Positions 17,398 through 39,840 of a DNA stretch of 64,000 bases are shown piece after piece. This stretch comes from Chloroflexota bacterium (GTDB taxonomy: Bacteria; Chloroflexota; Limnocylindria; P2-11E). Position 1 is the stretch's first letter; every line of letters begins with the position of its first letter. A program made the position numbers and the translations under genes. The notes below the pieces were generated by a model. The model was not told where the DNA came from. It worked only from the letters and a program-made list of their open reading frames with translations, and did no database searches. The stretch is from contig VBDU01000092.1 in assembly GCA_005883625.1 (NCBI GenBank), forward strand, positions 3,621 to 67,620, in the 5' to 3' direction.

Positions 17398-17801
17398 TTC
17401 GTGCGGCGACCCTGCGCGGGCTGCTGCATCTGGACGATGACGACCGGCAGGCCGCCGACCGCGCTGCCGTCGACGTCGAGCTCGAACCGGTGCACGCCGT
17501 AGGTCGTGAAGCTCATGTTGTTGAGCTCGACGATGACGTTCACGTCCTGTCCGGCAACGGCGTGCACCGAGATCTCCGGCGGGTTCGGCATCGCCTGGGC
17601 GCCGTCGGGCTTGAGCAGGCGGACGCGGACGGTGTGCGCGCCGACCTCGAGCCCGAGGATCGCCACCACGAACATTCGCGGGTGCTGGGCGGGCAGTCCG
17701 GTGACCGAGATGTTCCGGAAGATCCCCATGAGCGAGACCTTGCCGTCCTGACCGACCAGGGCGTGGTCGCAGAGCGCCGCGAGCCGGATCTCGGCGCTCA
17801 C
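17394..17801 (-). CDS. Conserved hypothetical protein (DUF6941-like)
   Basis: LCDHA..DGKVSLMGIF pattern; coupled to the leuS stop. Confidence 0.75.
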   Translation of the reverse strand: MSAEIRLAALCDHALVGQDGKVSLMGIFRNISVTGLPAQHPRMFVVAILGLEVGAHTVRVRLLKPDGAQAMPNPPEISVHAVAGQDVNVIVELNNMSFTTYGVHRFELDVDGSAVGGLPVVIVQMQQPAQGRRTN

Positions 17802-20236
17802 GAGCGGCGTCGCGTGACGATGTTCACCAGACGATCGGGTACGACGACCACGCGGTCGACGTCACGTCCGTCCAGCGCCGCCTTCGCGCGCGGGCTCGCC
17901 AGCGCCGCGTCGCTGGCGGCAGGCTTCGATAGCCCGGCTGGGACGGTCAACCGGTCGCGCACCTTGCCGTCCACCTGGACGACCAGCGTGACCTCCTCGG
18001 GCGCCGCCAGCGCGGGATCGAACGTCGGCCACGCCTGCGCGTGGATCGAGCCCGCCTGGCCCCAGCGGTGCCACAGCTCCTCGGACAGGTACGGCGCGAA
18101 CGGCGCCAGCAGGAGCGTGAGCGCGCGCACGCCCTCACGCCGGCTCGGGCCGCTCGCGTGCTGGAGCGCGTTCGACAGCTCCATCATCGCGGCGATCGCC
18201 GTGTTGAAGCGGTACGCGGCGAGGTCCTCCGTCACCTTCTCGACGGTGTGATGCACCGCGTGATCGATCGCGCGGTCCCGCGGTCCGTCGCCCGGTTCGC
18301 TCAGGCCGAGCGTCCAGACGCGGTTCAGGAAGCGGTGGACGCCTTCGATGCCCGAGGCGTCCCAGTCCGCGCCCTCGGTCCATGGCCCGAGGAACATCAT
18401 GAACAGGCGCAGCGTGTCGGCGCCGTACTTCGCGACGTACTCGTCCGGCGTCTGCACGTTGCCGCGCGACTTCGACATCTTGCGGCCGCCGAAGATGATC
18501 GTTCCCTGGTTCTGCAGGCGCAGCGCCGGCTCGTCGAACCACAGCTCCCCCAGGTCGCGCAGCGCCTTGCAGACGAAGCGCATGTACAGCAAGTGCAGGA
18601 TCGCGTGCTCGATACCGCCGGTGTACTGCGCGACCGGCAGCCAGCGCCGACCGACCGCCTTGTTCATGAACGCGGTGTCGATCTTCGGGTCCAGGTAGCG
18701 GTACATGTACCAGGACGAGTCGACGAACGTGTCCATCGTGTCGGTGTCGCGCTTCGCCGGCTTCCCACAGCGCGGGCAGGTCGTGTTCACGAACGACGCC
18801 ACGTGGGCCAGCGGCGAGCCGCCGCGCCCGGTGAACTCGACGTCCCGCGGCAGGACGATCGGCAGCTGGTCGTACGGGACCGGCACCTGGCCGCACGCAT
18901 CGCAGTACACGATCGGGATCGGCGTGCCCCAGTAGCGCTGGCGGGAGATCAGCCAGTCGCGCAGCCGGTAGGTCACCGCGGGCGCGCCGACGCCGCGCCG
19001 CCTCGCCTCCTCCGCGACCGCCCCCTTGCCCTCCTCGCTCCGCGTCCCGGCGAAGGGGCCGCTGCGGACCATCACGCCCTCGCCCACGTAGGCGGCGTCC
19101 AGCGCGGCATGCTCCTTCCCGTCGGGTGAGATGACCTCGCGGATCTCGAGGCCGTACTTCTGCGCGAACGCGAAGTCGCGCTCGTCGTGCGCCGGGACGG
19201 CCATGATCGCGCCCGTGCCGTAGGTCGCGAGCACGTAGTCGGCCACCCAGACCGGCACGCGCTCGCCCGTGAAGACGTTCCGTGCGAACGCGCCCGTGTC
19301 GACGCCGGTCTTCTCGCGCTCCGCGGCAGTGCGCTCGATCTCGGTCATGTTCCGCGCGCGCTCGACGTAGCGCTCGACGTCCGCCCTGCGCGCGGGCGCG
19401 GTGATCTTTGCCACGAGCGGATGCTCCGGCGCGAGGACCACGAAGGTCGCGCCGTAGATCGTGTCCGGCCGCGTCGTGAAGAAGCGGATCTCCTCCCCTG
19501 GCCGCCCCTCAATCGGGAACGCGAGCTCGGCGCCTTCGGAGCGGCCGATCCAGTTCGTCTGCATCACGCGCACGCGCTCGGGCCAGTCGAGCCCGTCGAA
19601 GCGCAGCAGCTCGTCCGCGTAGGCCGTGATCTTGAAGAACCACTGCGTCATCAGGCGCTTCACGACGGGCGTATCGCAGCGCTCGCAGCGGCCGGCGATG
19701 ACCTGTTCGTTCGCCAGCACGGTCTCGTCGCGAGGGCACCAGTTCACCGGCGCCTCGCCACGGTAGGCGAGGCCCTTCTCGTAGAGGCGCAGGAACATCC
19801 ACTGGTTCCACCGGTAGTACTCGGGGTAGCAGGTCACGACCTCCCGGCGCCAGTCGATCGCCGCGCCCATGCGGTGGAACTGGTCGCGCATGTGCGCCAT
19901 GTTCTTCTCGGTCCACGCCGCGGGATGGATCTTCCGATCGATCGCCGCGTTCTCCGCGTTGATGCCGAAGGCGTCGAAGCCCATCGGGAACAGCACGTTG
20001 TGCCCGCGCATGCGCAGGTAGCGGGCGGCGCAGTCGGCGGGCGCGAAGGCGTACCAGTGGCCGACGTGGATGTCGCCCGAGGGGTACGGGAACATCGTCA
20101 GGAAGTAGAAGTTGGGCTTGTCGGAGACGTCTGGCGTCTCGTGCGCGCGCGTGCGCGCCCACTCGTCGCGCCACATCGCCTCGATCGCCGACGGCGCGTA
20201 CCGCTCGATCTTCCTCTTCTTCACCTCGCTCGCCAC
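17798..20236 (-). CDS. leuS: Leucine--tRNA ligase
   Basis: MFPYPSGDIHVGH, NWIGRSEG, FTTRPDT, LRDWLISRQRYWG, KMSKS; SD AGAAAGGAGGT. Confidence 0.98.
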   Translation of the reverse strand: MASEVKKRKIERYAPSAIEAMWRDEWARTRAHETPDVSDKPNFYFLTMFPYPSGDIHVGHWYAFAPADCAARYLRMRGHNVLFPMGFDAFGINAENAAIDRKIHPAAWTEKNMAHMRDQFHRMGAAIDWRREVVTCYPEYYRWNQWMFLRLYEKGLAYRGEAPVNWCPRDETVLANEQVIAGRCERCDTPVVKRLMTQWFFKITAYADELLRFDGLDWPERVRVMQTNWIGRSEGAELAFPIEGRPGEEIRFFTTRPDTIYGATFVVLAPEHPLVAKITAPARRADVERYVERARNMTEIERTAAEREKTGVDTGAFARNVFTGERVPVWVADYVLATYGTGAIMAVPAHDERDFAFAQKYGLEIREVISPDGKEHAALDAAYVGEGVMVRSGPFAGTRSEEGKGAVAEEARRRGVGAPAVTYRLRDWLISRQRYWGTPIPIVYCDACGQVPVPYDQLPIVLPRDVEFTGRGGSPLAHVASFVNTTCPRCGKPAKRDTDTMDTFVDSSWYMYRYLDPKIDTAFMNKAVGRRWLPVAQYTGGIEHAILHLLYMRFVCKALRDLGELWFDEPALRLQNQGTIIFGGRKMSKSRGNVQTPDEYVAKYGADTLRLFMMFLGPWTEGADWDASGIEGVHRFLNRVWTLGLSEPGDGPRDRAIDHAVHHTVEKVTEDLAAYRFNTAIAAMMELSNALQHASGPSRREGVRALTLLLAPFAPYLSEELWHRWGQAGSIHAQAWPTFDPALAAPEEVTLVVQVDGKVRDRLTVPAGLSKPAASDAALASPRAKAALDGRDVDRVVVVPDRLVNIVTRRRS

Positions 20237-20254
20237 TCGCTACCTCCTTTCTTA

Positions 20255-20340
20255 TCGCAGGGGCGGGCCCCCGCACCCCCTTCTTATCGCAGGCACGCTT
20301 CGCTCGCAGGGGCCCCTGCCCCTGGGCCCCCGCACCCCCT
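20255..20340 (+). repeat. Two copies of the dispersed GC-rich intergenic repeat
   Basis: TCGCAGGGGCGGGCCCCCGCACCCCCT at 20255-20281; core GGGCCCCCGCACCCCCT at 20324-20340. Confidence 0.85.
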
Positions 20341-20347
20341 GGGTGCG

Positions 20348-20403
20348 AAAACAAAAAGCCCTTCTCGCCTACGCGCGCCGTCACGCGCGGGGACGAAAGG
20401 GCT
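20348..20403 (-). terminator. T-box intrinsic terminator
   Basis: AGCCCTTTCG...CGAGAAGGGCT stem followed by TTTTGTTTT, overlapping the antiterminator 3' strand. Confidence 0.9.
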
Positions 20404-20455
20404 CACGCCGTTCCGCGGTACCACCCCGATTGAGAGCCCGCCGGCCTGATCGCTG

Positions 20456-20527
20456 TGGACCTGGCGGGATTCGAACCCGCGACCCCCACACTGCCAGTGT
20501 GATGCGCTCCCACTGCGCCACAGGCCC
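20456..20527 (-). tRNA. tRNA-Ala(GGC), CCA not encoded, nested in the T-box leader
   Basis: GGGCCTG/CAGGTCC-A acceptor with G3:U70, GCGC D stem, CT-GGC-AG anticodon loop, GCGGG-TTCGAAT-CCCGC T arm. Confidence 0.96.
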
Positions 20528-20707
20528 GCTCGCTCTCCACTCGAGCACGCCGTTAACGAGGCGTCACGTCGGCGAGGGCTACCGTCCGGGTCACCCTCGC
20601 GGCTCCCGGGCGAGTTCGGCGCTCCCGCGACACCGGCTCGCACCAGCCACCGGCTCTCTTCGTCGAGGGATACGCGTACTGCTCCCGATCGTCGCCGTTG
20701 GATGAAA

Positions 20708-20713
20708 AGTATA
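20708..20713 (-). promoter_or_regulatory. -10 element TATACT for the T-box/tRNA/leuS transcript
   Basis: TATACT just upstream of Stem I; no clear -35. Confidence 0.6.
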
Positions 20714-20719
20714 CGAGCG

Positions 20720-21889
20720 TCAGAGCAGGACCGAGCGGTCCCCTTCGCGCCGCATCGAGATCGACTGAAGCACTCCGAGAGCAAAACAGATCGACACGAG
20801 CGAGCTGCCGCCGTGTGAGATGAACGGCAGCGGGATGCCGGTGATCGGCATGAGCGAGATCGCCATCCCGACGTTCACGACGATCTGGAACGCGAGCATC
20901 GTCGCGACTCCGCCGGCCACCAGGAGCCCGAACGGGTCGCGCGCGCGGAACGCGATCCTGAGCGCCGCGAGGAGGAGCACCGCGTAGAGCGCGAACAGGA
21001 TGACGGCGCCGACGAACCCGAGGTCTTCGGCGAGGCCCGCGAACACGAAGTCCGACTCCGCGATGGGCAGATACCCGAGCGGGGACTGCGTGCCGGCGGT
21101 GAGGCCCTTGCCGGTGGCGCCGCCCGAGCCCACCGCGATGAGCGACTGGATGATGTTCCAGCCGGCCCCCTGCGGGTCCCCGTACGGGTTCAGGAACGCG
21201 GTGAGCCGCGCGCGCTGGTACTCCTTGAGGAACGACCAGACGAGCGGCAGCGCGGCGATGGCGACCGCGACGAGCCCGGTGAGCTGCCAGGCGCGCGCGC
21301 CCGCGAGGAACGCGACGCCGAAAAAGATCGCGACGAAGACCAGGCTCGTCCCGAGATCGGGTTGCCGGTAGACGAGGAAGACCGCCGGGGCGAGGAGCCC
21401 GAGCCCCTGCAGGACGACGAGCGGCGAGCGGACGCGCTCTTCCCGATCGGCGAAGAACTTCGCGAGCACGATGATCATGAGCACCTTCGCGACCTCGCTG
21501 AACTGGAACGTCAGCCCGCCGAAGCTGACCGACCGCTGCGCGCCGAGCGTCGATGTGCCGATGACGAGGACGACGCCGAGGAGCCCGAGCATGAGAAGGT
21601 AGAGGAGCGGCGCGAACGCGCCGAGCCAGGCGTAATCGAAGAGCGCGACGGCCACCATCGCCGTGAGGCCGACGGTCGCCCAGATCGCGCCTCGGTAGAC
21701 GAACTGCATTGGATCTCCTGTGAACGTGCGGGTCTCGGCGGTGACCGAGTAGGTCATCACGAGGCCGTATCCGATGAGCAGGAGCGTCACGATGAGAAGA
21801 AAGGGATCGACGTGCTCCCAGCGGCTCGGGACCGGGCGGTCGTGGAACGGTGTCGCGGCGCGGGGGAGGGCGAGCGGCCGGACGCTCAC
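20720..21889 (-). CDS. rodA: Rod shape-determining protein RodA
   Basis: GAQRS, QPDLGT, YQRARL, QSLIAVGSGG, PITGIPLPFISHGGSS. Confidence 0.95.
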   Translation of the reverse strand: MSVRPLALPRAATPFHDRPVPSRWEHVDPFLLIVTLLLIGYGLVMTYSVTAETRTFTGDPMQFVYRGAIWATVGLTAMVAVALFDYAWLGAFAPLLYLLMLGLLGVVLVIGTSTLGAQRSVSFGGLTFQFSEVAKVLMIIVLAKFFADREERVRSPLVVLQGLGLLAPAVFLVYRQPDLGTSLVFVAIFFGVAFLAGARAWQLTGLVAVAIAALPLVWSFLKEYQRARLTAFLNPYGDPQGAGWNIIQSLIAVGSGGATGKGLTAGTQSPLGYLPIAESDFVFAGLAEDLGFVGAVILFALYAVLLLAALRIAFRARDPFGLLVAGGVATMLAFQIVVNVGMAISLMPITGIPLPFISHGGSSLVSICFALGVLQSISMRREGDRSVLL

Positions 21890-39419: not shown

Positions 39420-39490
39420 GGCGGACCTCCCCAGGTGAGAAGAGGATAGGGGAGCGCCGCAGCTCGCGGCGCTGCGTTCGCGTGTTCCTG

Positions 39491-39840
39491 TGGAGATGGG
39501 GGAGGGTCGAACTCCCCGTCCAAGGCCTGCTCGCGGATCGCGTCTACGAGCGTGTTCGGCGATTTTTTTCTCGCGGACCCGGTCGCACACCGACGCGCTA
39601 CCGGATCGCGCACAGGCCGTGAACTTGAGCCCGCCTACCGGCCGATCGGCGGGCCGCACCTCCGCTTTATTCGTCCTCGAGGCCCGCGGAGGGGAGACCT
39701 CGAGGACGCTCACTGACTAGGCAGCGAGAGCGTAAGAAGTGTTGCCAGTTATCTGGCAGCCGTTCGGATTAACGAGGGGGAACGGCGTTCCTCGGCTCGC
39801 AGCGGTCCGTCCGCCTGCCCTGTCGAAGCCACGCATCCCC
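39491..39840 (-). ncRNA. ssrA: tmRNA (one-piece), tag (A)GNTSYALAA
   Basis: 5' GGGGATG..TTCGAC, 3' GGGGAG-TTCGAC-CCTCCCCCATCTCCA, ATAACT before resume codon, tag frame 39746-39717. Confidence 0.96.

What the first reader, a model, noticed from the sequence alone, without database searches (positions are those of the whole stretch)
20348..20713. Complete tRNA-Ala(GGC) gene nested inside Stem III of the leuS T-box riboswitch
Seen: on the minus strand a -10 box (TATACT) is followed by Stem I with AGUA, AGAGAG, distal loop and Leu specifier CUC, then Stem II, then GAGAGC (20537-20532), a full tRNA-Ala (20527-20456), GCTCTC (20437-20432), the UGGU antiterminator and a terminator. The tRNA is therefore the loop of Stem III. 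Established: a T-box needs Stem I and the antiterminator to clamp one uncharged tRNA-Leu, and RNase P plus 3' nucleases excise tRNAs. Inference: terminated leaders would still yield tRNA-Ala, and excision would cut the riboswitch between its sensor domains, leaving the halves joined only by the 6-bp Stem III base. This could couple tRNA-Ala maturation to leucine sensing. I cannot confirm from the sequence whether it has been described.
Basis: partly seen in the sequence, partly recalled or inferred. Interest (0 to 1): 0.9.

Follow-up and report, generated by a model that had tools for sequence, protein, structure and literature searches.

The report
tRNA gene nested inside leuS T-box
A leucine-sensing T-box riboswitch in front of the leucyl-tRNA synthetase gene carries a complete, apparently essential alanine tRNA gene inside one of its own hairpins, an arrangement conserved across a whole bacterial phylum and beyond and apparently not described before.

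Summary
Window 20386-20701 (minus strand) matches the whole Rfam T-box model (64 bits, E 1.2e-13). It falls below the gathering score only because 94 nt sit in the Stem III loop. That insert is tRNA-Ala(GGC), 20456-20527. leuS follows, the specifier is CUC (Leu), and an intrinsic terminator is present.

This tRNA is the only Ala-GGC gene in the window's assembly and in 5 of 5 well-assembled relatives. Stem III around it covaries strongly.

A pattern that named neither alanine nor leuS found 120 public loci. Of these, 111 hold tRNA-Ala(GGC) and 108 have leuS downstream. They come mostly from Chloroflexota and Syntrophomonadaceae-type Bacillota.

RNA-library contigs bridge the leader and the tRNA. 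Relatives that lost the T-box keep promoter, tRNA-Ala(GGC) and leuS in that order. In 24 of 112 loci a tRNA-Ala(CGC) gene sits directly before Stem I.

Best reading: the tRNA is co-transcribed from the leader promoter, and the T-box terminator gates only leuS. Any coupling between tRNA excision and leucine sensing is untested. Ten literature searches found no description.

The parts
20708..20713 (-). -10-like promoter hexamer TATACT, about 7-12 nt upstream of the start of the T-box match. It lies just past the rodA stop codon (20722-20720).
   Evidence: Sequence. The hexamer is kept at the same place before Stem I through the genus and family while its surroundings diverge. The consensus scan called no sigma-70 site because no -35 match is present.
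20386..20701 (-). T-box leader (Stem I, Stem II, IIA/B with F-box, Stem III, antiterminator), interrupted by a 94-nt insertion in the Stem III loop.
   Evidence: RF00230, model 1-219, 64.0 bits (gathering score 93), E 1.2e-13, insertion of 94 nt between GGAGAGC and GCUCUC.
20612..20614 (-). Specifier codon CUC (leucine) in the Stem I specifier loop, preceded by GAA and followed by G.
   Evidence: cmscan alignment. A regex found CTC in all 98 of its hits among 105 nested loci. Among 40 further loci it found CTC in 33, CCC in 1 and no hit in 6.
20532..20537 (-). Stem III 5' strand GAGAGC, preceded by GAGUG (the RRRNG motif).
20456..20527 (-). tRNA-Ala, anticodon GGC, with G3:U70. CCA is not encoded (the discriminator A is followed by CAG). 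It is the sole Ala-GGC gene of the assembly.
   Evidence: ARAGORN. RF00005 65.6 bits. 1 of 42 tRNAs in G000. G3:U70 in 92 of 92 aligned loci, and 15 of 26 cloverleaf pairs with compensatory changes.
20432..20437 (-). Stem III 3' strand GCUCUC, followed by AA.
20414..20427 (-). Conserved T-box sequence GGGGUGGUACCGCG. Its bulge UGGU (20423-20420) would pair with the ACCA end of uncharged tRNA.
   Evidence: cmscan alignment.
20348..20404 (-). Intrinsic terminator: a long hairpin plus UUUUUGUUUU. Its 5' strand overlaps the 3' strand of the antiterminator.
   Evidence: Fold of 20340-20445 and sequence.
20237..20347 (-). About 110-nt spacer between terminator and leuS start, absent in relatives. 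It holds two copies of a 16-nt dispersed repeat and two copies of a 12-nt word.
17798..20236 (-). leuS (leucine--tRNA ligase), GTG start. This is the regulated gene.
   Evidence: TIGR00396 968 bits against a cut-off of 548.4; ORF list.

Best explanation
This is a working leucine-specific T-box transcription attenuator of leuS whose dispensable Stem III loop hosts the cell's only tRNA-Ala(GGC) gene.

One promoter (-10 TATACT, 20713-20708) starts every transcript. RNA polymerase makes Stem I, Stem II and IIA/B, then the 5' strand of Stem III, then the tRNA, which folds on its own. Next come the 3' strand of Stem III, which closes the helix, then the T-box bulge and the terminator. Because the tRNA sits in a hairpin loop, the through-space geometry between Stem I and the discriminator is unchanged. 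Uncharged tRNA-Leu (anticodon GAG) can therefore still bridge the specifier CUC and the UGGU bulge and favour the antiterminator.

The tRNA lies upstream of the terminator. Each initiation thus yields one tRNA-Ala precursor whatever the leucine status, while only read-through transcripts carry leuS. The terminator serves both as the end of a tRNA transcription unit and as the leucine-controlled gate to leuS.

RNase P and a 3' nuclease followed by CCA addition then excise the tRNA. This cuts the leader between its two sensor domains, most likely after the termination decision.

Shown here: the anatomy, conservation, covariation, sole-copy status, and RNA-library contigs that join leader and tRNA. 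Inferred: the order of events, the processing enzymes, and that regulation is otherwise ordinary.
For: T-box and downstream gene
- The full-length T-box match has its insertion confined to the Stem III loop.
- leuS is downstream and the specifier is Leu CUC.
- The terminator overlaps the antiterminator.

The tRNA
- It scores 65.6 bits, has G3:U70 in 92 of 92 loci, and 15 of 26 cloverleaf pairs show compensatory changes.
- It is the only Ala-GGC gene in G000, out of 42 tRNAs.
- In 5 of 5 relatives assembled in 1-8 contigs, the next best matches are Ala-UGC and Ala-CGC.
- GCC makes up 40 of 145 Ala codons in leuS plus rodA.

Stem III
- In 60 rows, 84.8% of cells are paired against 63.9 +/- 1.7% shuffled (0 of 500 shuffles reach it). 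There are 86 double-change cells against 29 +/- 6, and slid controls give 31-43%.
- Among 105 loci there are 56 different stem sequences. The median is 6 consecutive pairs, against 2 when flanks of different loci are paired.

Conservation
- 26 of 26 related loci hold the tRNA.
- 10 of the 11 leuS-type loci tested show a full-length T-box; the eleventh is cut by a contig end.
- 7 of 7 f4 genomes examined have the nesting.
- 111 of 120 pattern hits are Ala-GGC and 108 of 120 have leuS downstream.
- 10 of 10 named loci tested have a full-length T-box, 8 of them above the gathering score and up to 133 bits.

Promoter
- TATACT is conserved before Stem I, and nothing comparable is conserved before the tRNA.
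- In three relatives without a T-box, a -10-like box (TATACT in two, GATACA in the third) sits about 12-15 nt before the tRNA, and leuS follows.

RNA
- In two metatranscriptome runs of one study, contigs with 0 mismatches cover 20494-20581 (34 nt of tRNA plus 54 nt of leader) and 20552-20682 or 20552-20667. Neither run has an exact contig on leuS or rodA.
- A 260-nt contig of a relative, from another study, spans Stem I, the whole tRNA and the Stem III 3' strand.

Processing machinery in G000
- RNase P RNA is present at 208 bits.
- A CCA-adding-family enzyme is present at 124.6 bits.
Against: - No experiment shows antitermination, the transcription start, or the processing sites.
- The window's T-box score is below Rfam's gathering score (64 against 93).
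- No -35 element is recognisable, and the promoter scan found nothing.
- The cognate tRNA-Leu(GAG) was not found in the assembly, which is 92.5% complete.
- RNA-library contigs cannot prove a single transcript, and DNA carry-over cannot be fully excluded. They do not show starts, ends or strand.
- No RNase Z equivalog passes its cut-off: the best match is 63 bits against 293. The 3' nuclease is therefore unknown.
- Single-sequence folding is not better than shuffles (z -0.7 and -1.1). The structure rests on comparative evidence.
Confidence: 0.72

Rival explanations
1. Interlocked device. Excision of the tRNA by RNase P and a 3' nuclease is part of the regulation. It races with, or follows, the termination decision. 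It releases the bound tRNA-Leu and leaves leuS mRNA with the terminator hairpin at its new 5' end. LeuRS output would then depend on tRNA-processing capacity as well as on leucine.
For: - The cut sites lie between the two sensor domains, which follows from the anatomy.
- The 5' spacer between Stem III and the tRNA is short and conserved in length: median 4 nt, with 87 of 105 loci having a helix of at least 5 pairs.
- In 24 of 112 loci a second Ala tRNA directly precedes Stem I. Processing would then free the 5' sensor half as a separate RNA.
- Leader cleavage that alters mRNA stability is known for the thrS and met T-boxes, and RNase P cleaves the pbuE riboswitch (passages of PMC7913692).
- The arrangement has been kept over very long evolutionary distances.
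Against: - No data here bear on kinetics or mRNA stability.
- Three relatives without a T-box keep the tRNA-leuS unit, so the linkage does not need the riboswitch.
- The 3' spacer is very variable (0-110 nt). Extra 80-110-nt inserts are tolerated in 6 related loci, which argues against a finely tuned geometry.
- Conservation may only reflect the difficulty of moving a sole-copy essential gene.
Confidence: 0.2
2. Two independent units. The tRNA has its own promoter inside the leader, and the flanking T-box halves are either separately transcribed or a relic.
For: - The promoter scan is insensitive; it also missed the conserved TATACT before Stem I.
- Some genus members have TATCAA about 25 nt before the tRNA.
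Against: - That hexamer is part of the F-box region of the T-box. It lacks the final T and is not kept in the window or in several relatives.
- Exact RNA-library contigs run from inside the tRNA to 54 nt upstream and overlap a contig reaching Stem I.
- All T-box elements, including the specifier CUC, are conserved across phyla. A relic would not show this.
Confidence: 0.05
3. The nested tRNA acts in cis as a ligand or mimic for the T-box, for example by offering its elbow to the Stem I platform or its ACCA end to the UGGU bulge.
For: - The discriminator base is A, as the UGGU bulge requires.
- CCA is encoded in 73 of 105 loci.
Against: - Anticodon GGC cannot pair with the specifier CUC.
- CCA is not encoded in the window or in 32 of 105 loci.
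- The 3' end is not free until it is processed.
- The tRNA is the only Ala-GGC gene, so it must leave the leader to serve translation.
Confidence: 0.02
4. Assembly or binning artefact, in which a tRNA was wrongly joined into a leader.
For: - The genome is a fragmented assembly of 129 contigs.
- Unitigs of both DNA and RNA runs break inside the tRNA, at 20490/20494.
Against: - The same order of parts is found in 120 independent public records. These include isolates (Tengunoibacter, Dictyobacter, Thermosyntropha, Desulfallas) and closed chromosomes.
- DNA runs from several studies hold 75-98% of the stretch's words.
Confidence: 0.01

Closest known systems
Canonical T-box leaders of aminoacyl-tRNA synthetase genes (Rfam RF00230; the leuS, tyrS and glyQS leaders of Bacillus are recalled)
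   Same: - Stem I with GA motif, AG bulge, distal loop and specifier loop.
- Stem II and IIA/B with F-box.
- Stem III flanked by RRRNG and AA.
- UGGN bulge in an antiterminator that competes with an intrinsic terminator.
- The specifier matches the downstream synthetase (TBDB passages in PMC7778990).
   Different: The Stem III loop, a few nt in the model, holds a 72-nt functional tRNA gene plus spacers: 94 nt in the window and up to about 190 nt in relatives. The Rfam score therefore often falls below the gathering threshold. In the class-wide T-box scan, only 9 of 151 genomes had any T-box match over the cut-off.
Staphylococcus aureus met-leader T-box with a 150-nt insertion and RNase III cleavage (PMC7913692, passages read)
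   Same: It is a functional T-box that tolerates a large structured insertion upstream of the discriminator. Endonucleolytic cleavage of the leader affects the fate of the mRNA.
   Different: There the insertion is three stem-loops between IIA/B and Stem III, not inside Stem III. It encodes no separate RNA product. The cleavage is in the terminator and is made by RNase III.
GOLLD RNA with an embedded tRNA (passage in PMC12990946)
   Same: A complete tRNA is embedded in a larger structured non-coding RNA and lies within tRNA arrays.
   Different: GOLLD is a large RNA of unknown function, often in prophages, and is not a riboswitch. The identity of its embedded tRNA varies. Here the host is a defined cis-regulator and the guest is always tRNA-Ala(GGC).
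tRNA genes co-transcribed with a protein gene, such as the thrU-tyrU-glyT-thrT-tufB operon of E. coli (recalled, not checked here)
   Same: tRNAs and an mRNA of the translation apparatus share one promoter. RNase P separates them.
   Different: In that operon no riboswitch is interleaved with the tRNAs. Here the two halves of the riboswitch flank the tRNA, and the terminator between tRNA and gene is ligand-controlled.
Processing of the Bacillus subtilis thrS T-box leader, and RNase P cleavage of the pbuE adenine riboswitch (both as cited in PMC7913692; the original papers were not read)
   Same: A riboswitch leader is cut after its decision. The cut leaves a hairpin at the 5' end of the mRNA, or otherwise changes its stability.
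   Different: Those cuts release no functional RNA. Here the cuts are those of ordinary tRNA maturation. Their effect on leuS mRNA is unknown.

Membership tests
T-box leader (RF00230) | Stem I with GA/K-turn motif (AGUA), AG bulge (AGAGA), distal loop, and a specifier loop with GAA-codon-purine | tested here: met
   The cmscan alignment covers model positions 1-103 with these motifs: AGUA at 20680-77, AGAGAG at 20659-54, GAA-CUC-G at 20617-11.
T-box leader (RF00230) | Stem II, IIA/B region and F-box (CGUUA) | tested here: met
   Aligned at model positions 104-150, with CUCGUUA at 20560-54. The pseudoknot itself was not tested.
T-box leader (RF00230) | Stem III flanked by 5'-RRRNG and AA-3' | tested here: met
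   GAGUG-GAGAGC...GCUCUC-AA. All 6 pairs show compensatory changes, with 84.8% of cells paired against 63.9% shuffled. Motif as defined in the TBDB passage. RRRNG is present in 87 of 87 loci with a helix of at least 5 pairs; the AG-N-G part was required by my own search.
T-box leader (RF00230) | Conserved T-box sequence with UGGN bulge in an antiterminator that excludes a terminator | tested here: met
   GGGGUGGUACCGCG at 20427-14. The antiterminator 3' strand at 20397-20389 lies inside the terminator 5' strand at 20404-20392. The U-tract is at 20357-48.
T-box leader (RF00230) | Score at or above Rfam's gathering threshold (93 bits) | tested here: not met
   The window scores 64.0 bits; the shortfall is the cost of the 94-nt insertion. 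Orthologous nested leaders do pass: 108.2 and 96.7 bits; 133.2, 112.5, 102, 100.7, 95.2 and 93.7 bits; 129.3 and 104.2 bits.
T-box leader (RF00230) | Specifier matches the amino acid of the regulated gene | tested here: met
   The specifier is CUC (Leu) and leuS is downstream. leuS is downstream in 108 of 120 loci.
T-box leader (RF00230) | Read-through induced by uncharged cognate tRNA | not testable with these tools
   This needs in vitro transcription or reporter assays. The cognate tRNA-Leu(GAG) gene was not found in the incomplete assembly.
tRNA-Ala (RF00005; elongator tRNA) | Cloverleaf above the gathering score, 7-nt anticodon loop with GGC | tested here: met
   65.6 bits against 29. ARAGORN calls Ala, anticodon ggc. 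15 of 26 pairs have compensatory changes in 92 loci.
tRNA-Ala (RF00005; elongator tRNA) | G3:U70 pair, the alanyl-tRNA synthetase identity element (the role of the pair is recalled) | tested here: met
   Alignment columns 67/135 are G:U in 92 of 92 sequences.
tRNA-Ala (RF00005; elongator tRNA) | Needed by the cell: no other gene for this isoacceptor | tested here: met
   G000 has one Ala-GGC among 42 tRNAs. In 5 of 5 f4 genomes the only near-identical copy is the nested one.
tRNA-Ala (RF00005; elongator tRNA) | Mature, aminoacylated tRNA present in cells | not testable with these tools
   Only precursor-like RNA-library contigs were seen.
Polycistronic tRNA-mRNA transcription unit | One transcript spans the upstream RNA, the tRNA and the downstream gene | tested here: inconclusive
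   RNA-library contigs bridge leader and tRNA, and in a relative run on to the Stem III 3' strand. None reaches leuS. Contigs cannot prove single molecules.

The most novel reading that the evidence does not exclude
The riboswitch and a tRNA operon are one interlocked device. The 5' sensor half of the T-box is the spacer before, or between, alanine tRNA genes. The 3' half is the trailer. Ordinary tRNA maturation by RNase P and a 3' nuclease then dismantles the riboswitch. leuS output would be set by a race between antitermination and tRNA processing. The ligand-controlled terminator would divide the flux of a strong tRNA promoter between tRNA-Ala and LeuRS. This would be an ancient design, kept since before the classes of Chloroflexota diverged and shared with some Bacillota.
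Probability: 0.25. Interest if true: 0.9.

Novelty: new variant of a known kind. Interest (0 to 1): 0.78.

Why it matters
T-box riboswitches are a textbook case of RNA sensing RNA. Their Stem III has been treated as a short helper helix. Here a whole, sole-copy tRNA gene lives inside it, and this holds across a phylum and beyond.

Four consequences follow.
1. A cis-regulatory RNA can host an essential gene for another RNA, so both are made from one promoter.
2. Ordinary tRNA maturation must cut a riboswitch in two. This makes questions about the timing of co-transcriptional folding, ligand sensing and RNA processing directly testable in a natural system.
3. Because the insertion lowers covariance-model scores below threshold, these T-boxes are probably missed by automatic annotation. 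In a class-wide T-box scan only 9 of 151 genomes had any T-box match over the cut-off. T-box regulation in Chloroflexota may therefore be under-counted.
4. Relatives that lost the T-box but kept tRNA-leuS provide a natural comparison of regulated and unregulated forms.

If the excision proves to be part of the regulation, this would be a new way of linking tRNA-processing capacity to synthetase supply.

Tried and rejected
Single-sequence folding. Folds of the terminator region and of the whole leader were no better than shuffles (z -1.08 and -0.70). They were used only to read the terminator hairpin.

Consensus promoter and terminator scan. It found nothing in 20150-20900, not even the conserved TATACT or the evident terminator. 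It therefore gives no evidence either way.

RNAalifold on 92 loci. It recovered the cloverleaf but not Stem III, because MAFFT put the short flanks out of register. I replaced it with an anchored analysis and with the count of structure pairs on the 60 rows that shared the window's register. Rows were chosen by the position of the AA dinucleotide, not by pairing. Thirty-two rows were dropped for that reason. In the 60-row alignment about 11 rows are still misaligned on the 5' side and count as unpaired.

Twenty other long T-box hits of families f3 and f4. Eighteen hold no tRNA; they are other T-boxes with long inserts. L173 is a Trp T-box before trpE.

Chance estimate. My rough estimate of 30-45 chance matches for the collection-wide pattern was too high. 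Only L066 (a tmRNA) and L148 (tRNA-Ser, no T-box) look like chance among the 120. L166 has only a weak 38-bit T-box and no ARAGORN tRNA, and is unresolved. L063, L084, L089, L153 and L157 are cut by the locus end. In the phylum sample, 3 of 43 matches look like chance (G222, G475, G070), and the reversed-pattern control matched once.

RNA runs. Parts of the stretch without cover in X15-X17 (antiterminator, terminator, leuS, rodA) say nothing.

RNase Z. No match over the cut-off, so I do not name the 3' nuclease.

tRNA-Leu(GAG). Not found in G000. I read this as an assembly gap, because CUC is the commonest Leu codon in leuS plus rodA (61 of 115). This is not shown.

Cis-ligand idea. Rejected; see the rival explanations.

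Literature. Ten searches found no paper that describes a tRNA gene inside a T-box. One search was badly framed and useless. Vitreschak et al. 2008 could not be opened, either by DOI or by a recalled PMC id. Subscription papers and supplementary files were not visible and might hold a mention. Papers actually seen:
- PMC12990946: one passage.
- PMC7778990: passages.
- PMC1262725: passages, not relevant.
- PMC7913692: passages.
- PMC9433436: search-listing abstract only.

Not attempted: a LeuS or leader phylogeny to separate vertical descent from transfer between Chloroflexota and Bacillota. No structure or complex prediction was needed.

Unpublished genomes. G011 and G021 (loci L009, L008) enter only three things. 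One is the count of 21 of 21 same-genus genomes (19 of 19 without them). Another is the 26 of 26 loci (24 of 24 without them). The third is the flank print. They were left out. The family tallies include eight unpublished genomes (G115, G021, G102, G121, G135, G101, G109, G159).
Full report
WHAT IS THERE. On the minus strand of the window, ARAGORN finds one tRNA, tRNA-Ala with anticodon GGC, at 20455-20527. Rfam's tRNA model scores it at 65.6 bits against a gathering score of 29. At Rfam's gathering thresholds the only other hit in the 64 kb is a tmRNA.

With E-value reporting on 20250-20800, the T-box model RF00230 aligns over its full length (positions 1-219) to 20386-20701. The score is 64.0 bits, E 1.2e-13, against a gathering score of 93. 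The alignment shows these features:
- the GA motif;
- the AGAGA bulge;
- the distal loop;
- GAA-CUC-G in the specifier loop;
- Stem II and the F-box;
- the motif GAGUG before GGAGAGC, then an insertion of 94 nt, then GCUCUC-AA;
- the T-box sequence GGGGUGGUACCGCG and the antiterminator.

The insertion is the tRNA plus a 4-nt leader and an 18-nt trailer. A long hairpin followed by UUUUUGUUUU (20404-20348) overlaps the antiterminator's 3' strand. The next gene (17798-20236) is leuS, at 968 bits against a cut-off of 548.4. The gene upstream is rodA.

IS THE tRNA REAL AND NEEDED? Across 92 aligned loci the cloverleaf shows compensatory changes at 15 of 26 pairs. The G3:U70 pair is present in 92 of 92. 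The window's own assembly (129 contigs, 92.5% complete) has 42 tRNA genes, and only this one has anticodon GGC. Five relatives assembled in 1-8 contigs each have a single 99-100% identical copy, the nested one. The next matches are tRNA-Ala(UGC) at 88% and tRNA-Ala(CGC) at 84%.

GCC makes up 40 of 145 alanine codons in leuS plus rodA, so the tRNA must be made in quantity. CCA is not encoded. The same holds for 38 of the assembly's 42 tRNA genes. A CCA-adding-family enzyme and RNase P RNA are present. No RNase Z passes its cut-off.

IS STEM III REAL? In 105 loci I anchored the 5' strand after AG-N-G and the 3' strand before AA. The helix then has a median of 6 consecutive pairs, and 87 of 105 have at least 5. 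It occurs in 56 different sequences. Pairing the 5' flank of one locus with the 3' flank of another gives a median of 2, with 270 of 2032 reaching 5.

On a MAFFT alignment of the 60 loci in the window's register, the count of structure pairs gives the following:
- 84.8% of 349 cells are paired, against 63.9 +/- 1.7% in shuffles (0 of 500 reach the observed value).
- 86 cells have changes on both sides, against 29 +/- 6 (0 of 500).
- The covariation score is 0.530 against 0.192.
- Slid controls give 31-43% paired.
- All six pairs show compensatory change.

The spacer from the helix to tRNA +1 has a median of 4 nt. The 3' spacer has a median of 8 nt but ranges from 0 to 110.

HOW WIDESPREAD? A DNA search of 41 related genomes found the leader with its tRNA in the following:
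- 21 of 21 genomes of the genus (19 of 19 published ones);
- 3 of 3 other genera of the family;
- one of two genomes of a second family. The genome without a match is 64% complete.

ARAGORN finds tRNA-Ala(GGC) in 26 of 26 of these loci. Rfam finds a full-length T-box around it in 10 of the 11 tested; the eleventh is cut by a contig end. Two score above the gathering threshold. In a second family of the class (f4), 7 of 7 genomes examined have it.

I then scanned 185,579 species genomes for a generic tRNA T-arm word followed within 25-55 nt by the T-box sequence. This pattern names neither alanine nor leuS. Results for those 120 loci:
- 111 hold tRNA-Ala(GGC) at the match, and no other tRNA sits inside a T-box.
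- 108 have leuS downstream. Most of the others are cut.
- The specifier regex gives CTC in 98 of 98 hits among 105 loci. Among 40 more loci it gives CTC in 33, CCC in 1 (L159, unverified) and no hit in 6.

Ten named loci were tested with Rfam: Tengunoibacter, Ktedonobacter, Dictyobacter, Thermosyntropha, Gelria, Desulfallas, and MAGs labelled Chloroflexia, Anaerolineae, Limnocylindria and Solirubrobacterales. All ten have a full-length T-box around the tRNA. Eight are above the gathering score, up to 133.2 bits.

By record titles, most loci are Chloroflexota. About twenty-five are labelled Bacillota (Syntrophomonas, Syntrophomonadaceae, Thermosyntropha, Gelria, Desulfallas and unnamed Bacillota or Clostridia). 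A few carry other labels. Two of those other labels (proteobacterial, L055 and L105) have the same matched stretch as genomes that the genome tool places in the window's phylum. They are probably mislabelled.

In an even sample of the phylum the strict pattern matches 43 of 401 genomes. Three of these look like chance, and the reversed control matched once. The distribution by family is patchy: f4 15/16, f8 4/4, f18 7/12, and several large families 0 of 17-25. Named records with the same leader and 72-80% identical LeuS are labelled Chloroflexi or Candidatus Limnocylindria. The window's organism is therefore probably a soil member of that class. This is an inference from labels.

ONE TRANSCRIPT OR TWO? 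The hexamer TATACT sits a fixed short distance before Stem I throughout the genus and family, while the rodA end and the intergenic DNA diverge. No such element is conserved before the tRNA.

Two metatranscriptome runs of one study hold contigs identical to the window over 20494-20581. That is 34 nt of tRNA and 54 nt of leader, across the RNase P site. They also hold contigs over 20552-20682 or 20552-20667. Neither run has an exact contig on leuS or rodA, which argues against DNA carry-over. A run from another study holds a 260-nt contig of a relative that covers Stem I, the whole tRNA and the 3' strand of Stem III. The contig break at 20490/20494 is also seen in a DNA run, so it is a graph break. 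Contigs cannot show starts, ends or single molecules.

A natural experiment points the same way. In two genomes of family f3 and one of f5, Rfam finds no T-box at E up to 0.01. Yet tRNA-Ala(GGC) still lies about 60-160 nt before leuS. A -10-like box (TATACT in the two f3 genomes, GATACA in the f5 genome) sits about 12-15 nt before the tRNA. Two other f3 genomes have no tRNA within 1.5 kb of leuS.

In 24 of 112 loci a tRNA-Ala(CGC) gene lies on the same strand 183-371 nt before the nested tRNA, that is, directly before Stem I. These loci are labelled mainly Ktedonobacteria, Anaerolineae and Chloroflexia or unclassified Chloroflexota. In L106 only 18 nt separate it from the T-box match. There the 5' half of the riboswitch is the spacer between two alanine tRNA genes. 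It can hardly have a promoter of its own.

HOW IT MOST LIKELY WORKS. One promoter drives the leader. The tRNA sits in a hairpin loop, so it does not lengthen the path between Stem I and the discriminator once Stem III closes. Large insertions near this place are tolerated in a working T-box, the S. aureus met leader (passages). Uncharged tRNA-Leu would bridge CUC and UGGU and prevent termination. That is the established T-box mechanism and was not tested here.

Because the tRNA precedes the terminator, tRNA-Ala output follows promoter activity alone, and leuS output follows leucine charging. The terminator thus also ends a tRNA transcription unit. Excision by RNase P and a 3' nuclease then separates the two sensor halves. 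I take this to happen after the decision, because the remaining 110 nt or so are transcribed in seconds. That is inference.

The abstract of PMC9433436, seen only in a search listing, states that pairing which extends the acceptor stem inhibits RNase P. A closed Stem III next to the acceptor stem might therefore slow cleavage. That is a lead, not a result. Whether the cut changes leuS mRNA stability, as leader cleavage does for thrS and met, is open.

NOVELTY. Both parts are known kinds, but their nesting appears to be new. Ten full-text searches found no description. The nearest parallel is a tRNA embedded in GOLLD RNA.

VERDICT. The co-transcription reading is well supported. The proposed coupling between tRNA-Ala maturation and leucine sensing remains an attractive, testable, unproven idea.

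Noticed in passing
L053, L067, L078-L081, L091, L092, L101, L102, L106, L108, L115, L121, L130, L134, L135, L143, L151, L152, L158, L159, L161, L164: A tRNA-Ala(CGC) gene lies on the same strand 183-371 nt before the nested tRNA-Ala(GGC), directly before T-box Stem I (24 of 112 loci, always Ala-CGC). In L106 only 18 nt separate it from the T-box match. In f4 genomes G047, G082 and G032 the Ala-CGC gene is 1.4-2.9 kb upstream.
   Followed up: partly
L176 (G060), L179 (G027), L178 (G033); L177 (G035), L180 (G039): Relatives of the same class have no detectable leuS T-box. Three of five still have tRNA-Ala(GGC) 60-160 nt before leuS, with a -10-like box just before the tRNA. L179 keeps a terminator-like hairpin between tRNA and leuS. 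The other two have no tRNA within 1.5 kb, and L177 has a fluoride riboswitch on the other strand.
   Followed up: partly
L012, L016, L018, L021, L024, L025 (between the tRNA and the Stem III 3' strand): An extra 80-110-nt insert with two conserved hairpins lies inside the Stem III loop, 3' of the tRNA, in some species of the genus and family but not in others. Rfam found no family for it in the five of these loci given.
   Followed up: no
window 20237-20347 (-); also near window 46180, 52329 and 60034: The window has a spacer of about 110 nt between terminator and leuS start that relatives lack. It holds two copies of a 16-nt G+C-rich word that occurs 10 times in the 3.2-Mb assembly, which looks like a REP-like dispersed repeat. 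It also holds two copies of a 12-nt word found nowhere else.
   Followed up: partly
window 39488-39840 (-): tmRNA gene, Rfam 120.5 bits. ARAGORN reads the tag peptide as GNTSYALAA.
   Followed up: no
G000 whole assembly: 38 of 42 tRNA genes do not encode CCA, and in many the discriminator is followed by CAG, as in the nested tRNA. No tRNA-Leu(GAG) and no tRNA-Ala(UGC) were found, although CUC is the commonest Leu codon in leuS plus rodA (61 of 115). These are probably assembly gaps.
   Followed up: partly
G000 C70:1353-1440, C74:10925-11024 and one tRNA-Pro(GGG) call of 97 nt: ARAGORN calls over-long tRNAs (Ala-CGC of 88 and 100 nt, Pro-GGG of 97 nt). They may be intron-containing genes or false calls. 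Not examined.
   Followed up: no
L045 1843-2406; L058 5241-5819 and 5582-6625: In f4-type and many Chloroflexia-labelled loci, a GNAT acetyltransferase gene lies between the T-box terminator and leuS. In L058 a SAM-dependent methyltransferase gene lies there too. Both would fall under the same leucine control.
   Followed up: partly
L173 (G027) 1465-1559: A T-box with specifier UGG lies before a trpE-like gene. Rfam matched only its Stem I half, although a T-box sequence and terminator are visible further on.
   Followed up: no
L166 4055-4235: A Syntrophomonadaceae-labelled locus has leuS downstream but only a weak, short T-box match (38 bits) and a tRNA-like stretch that ARAGORN does not call. 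It may be a decaying copy of the nested element.
   Followed up: no
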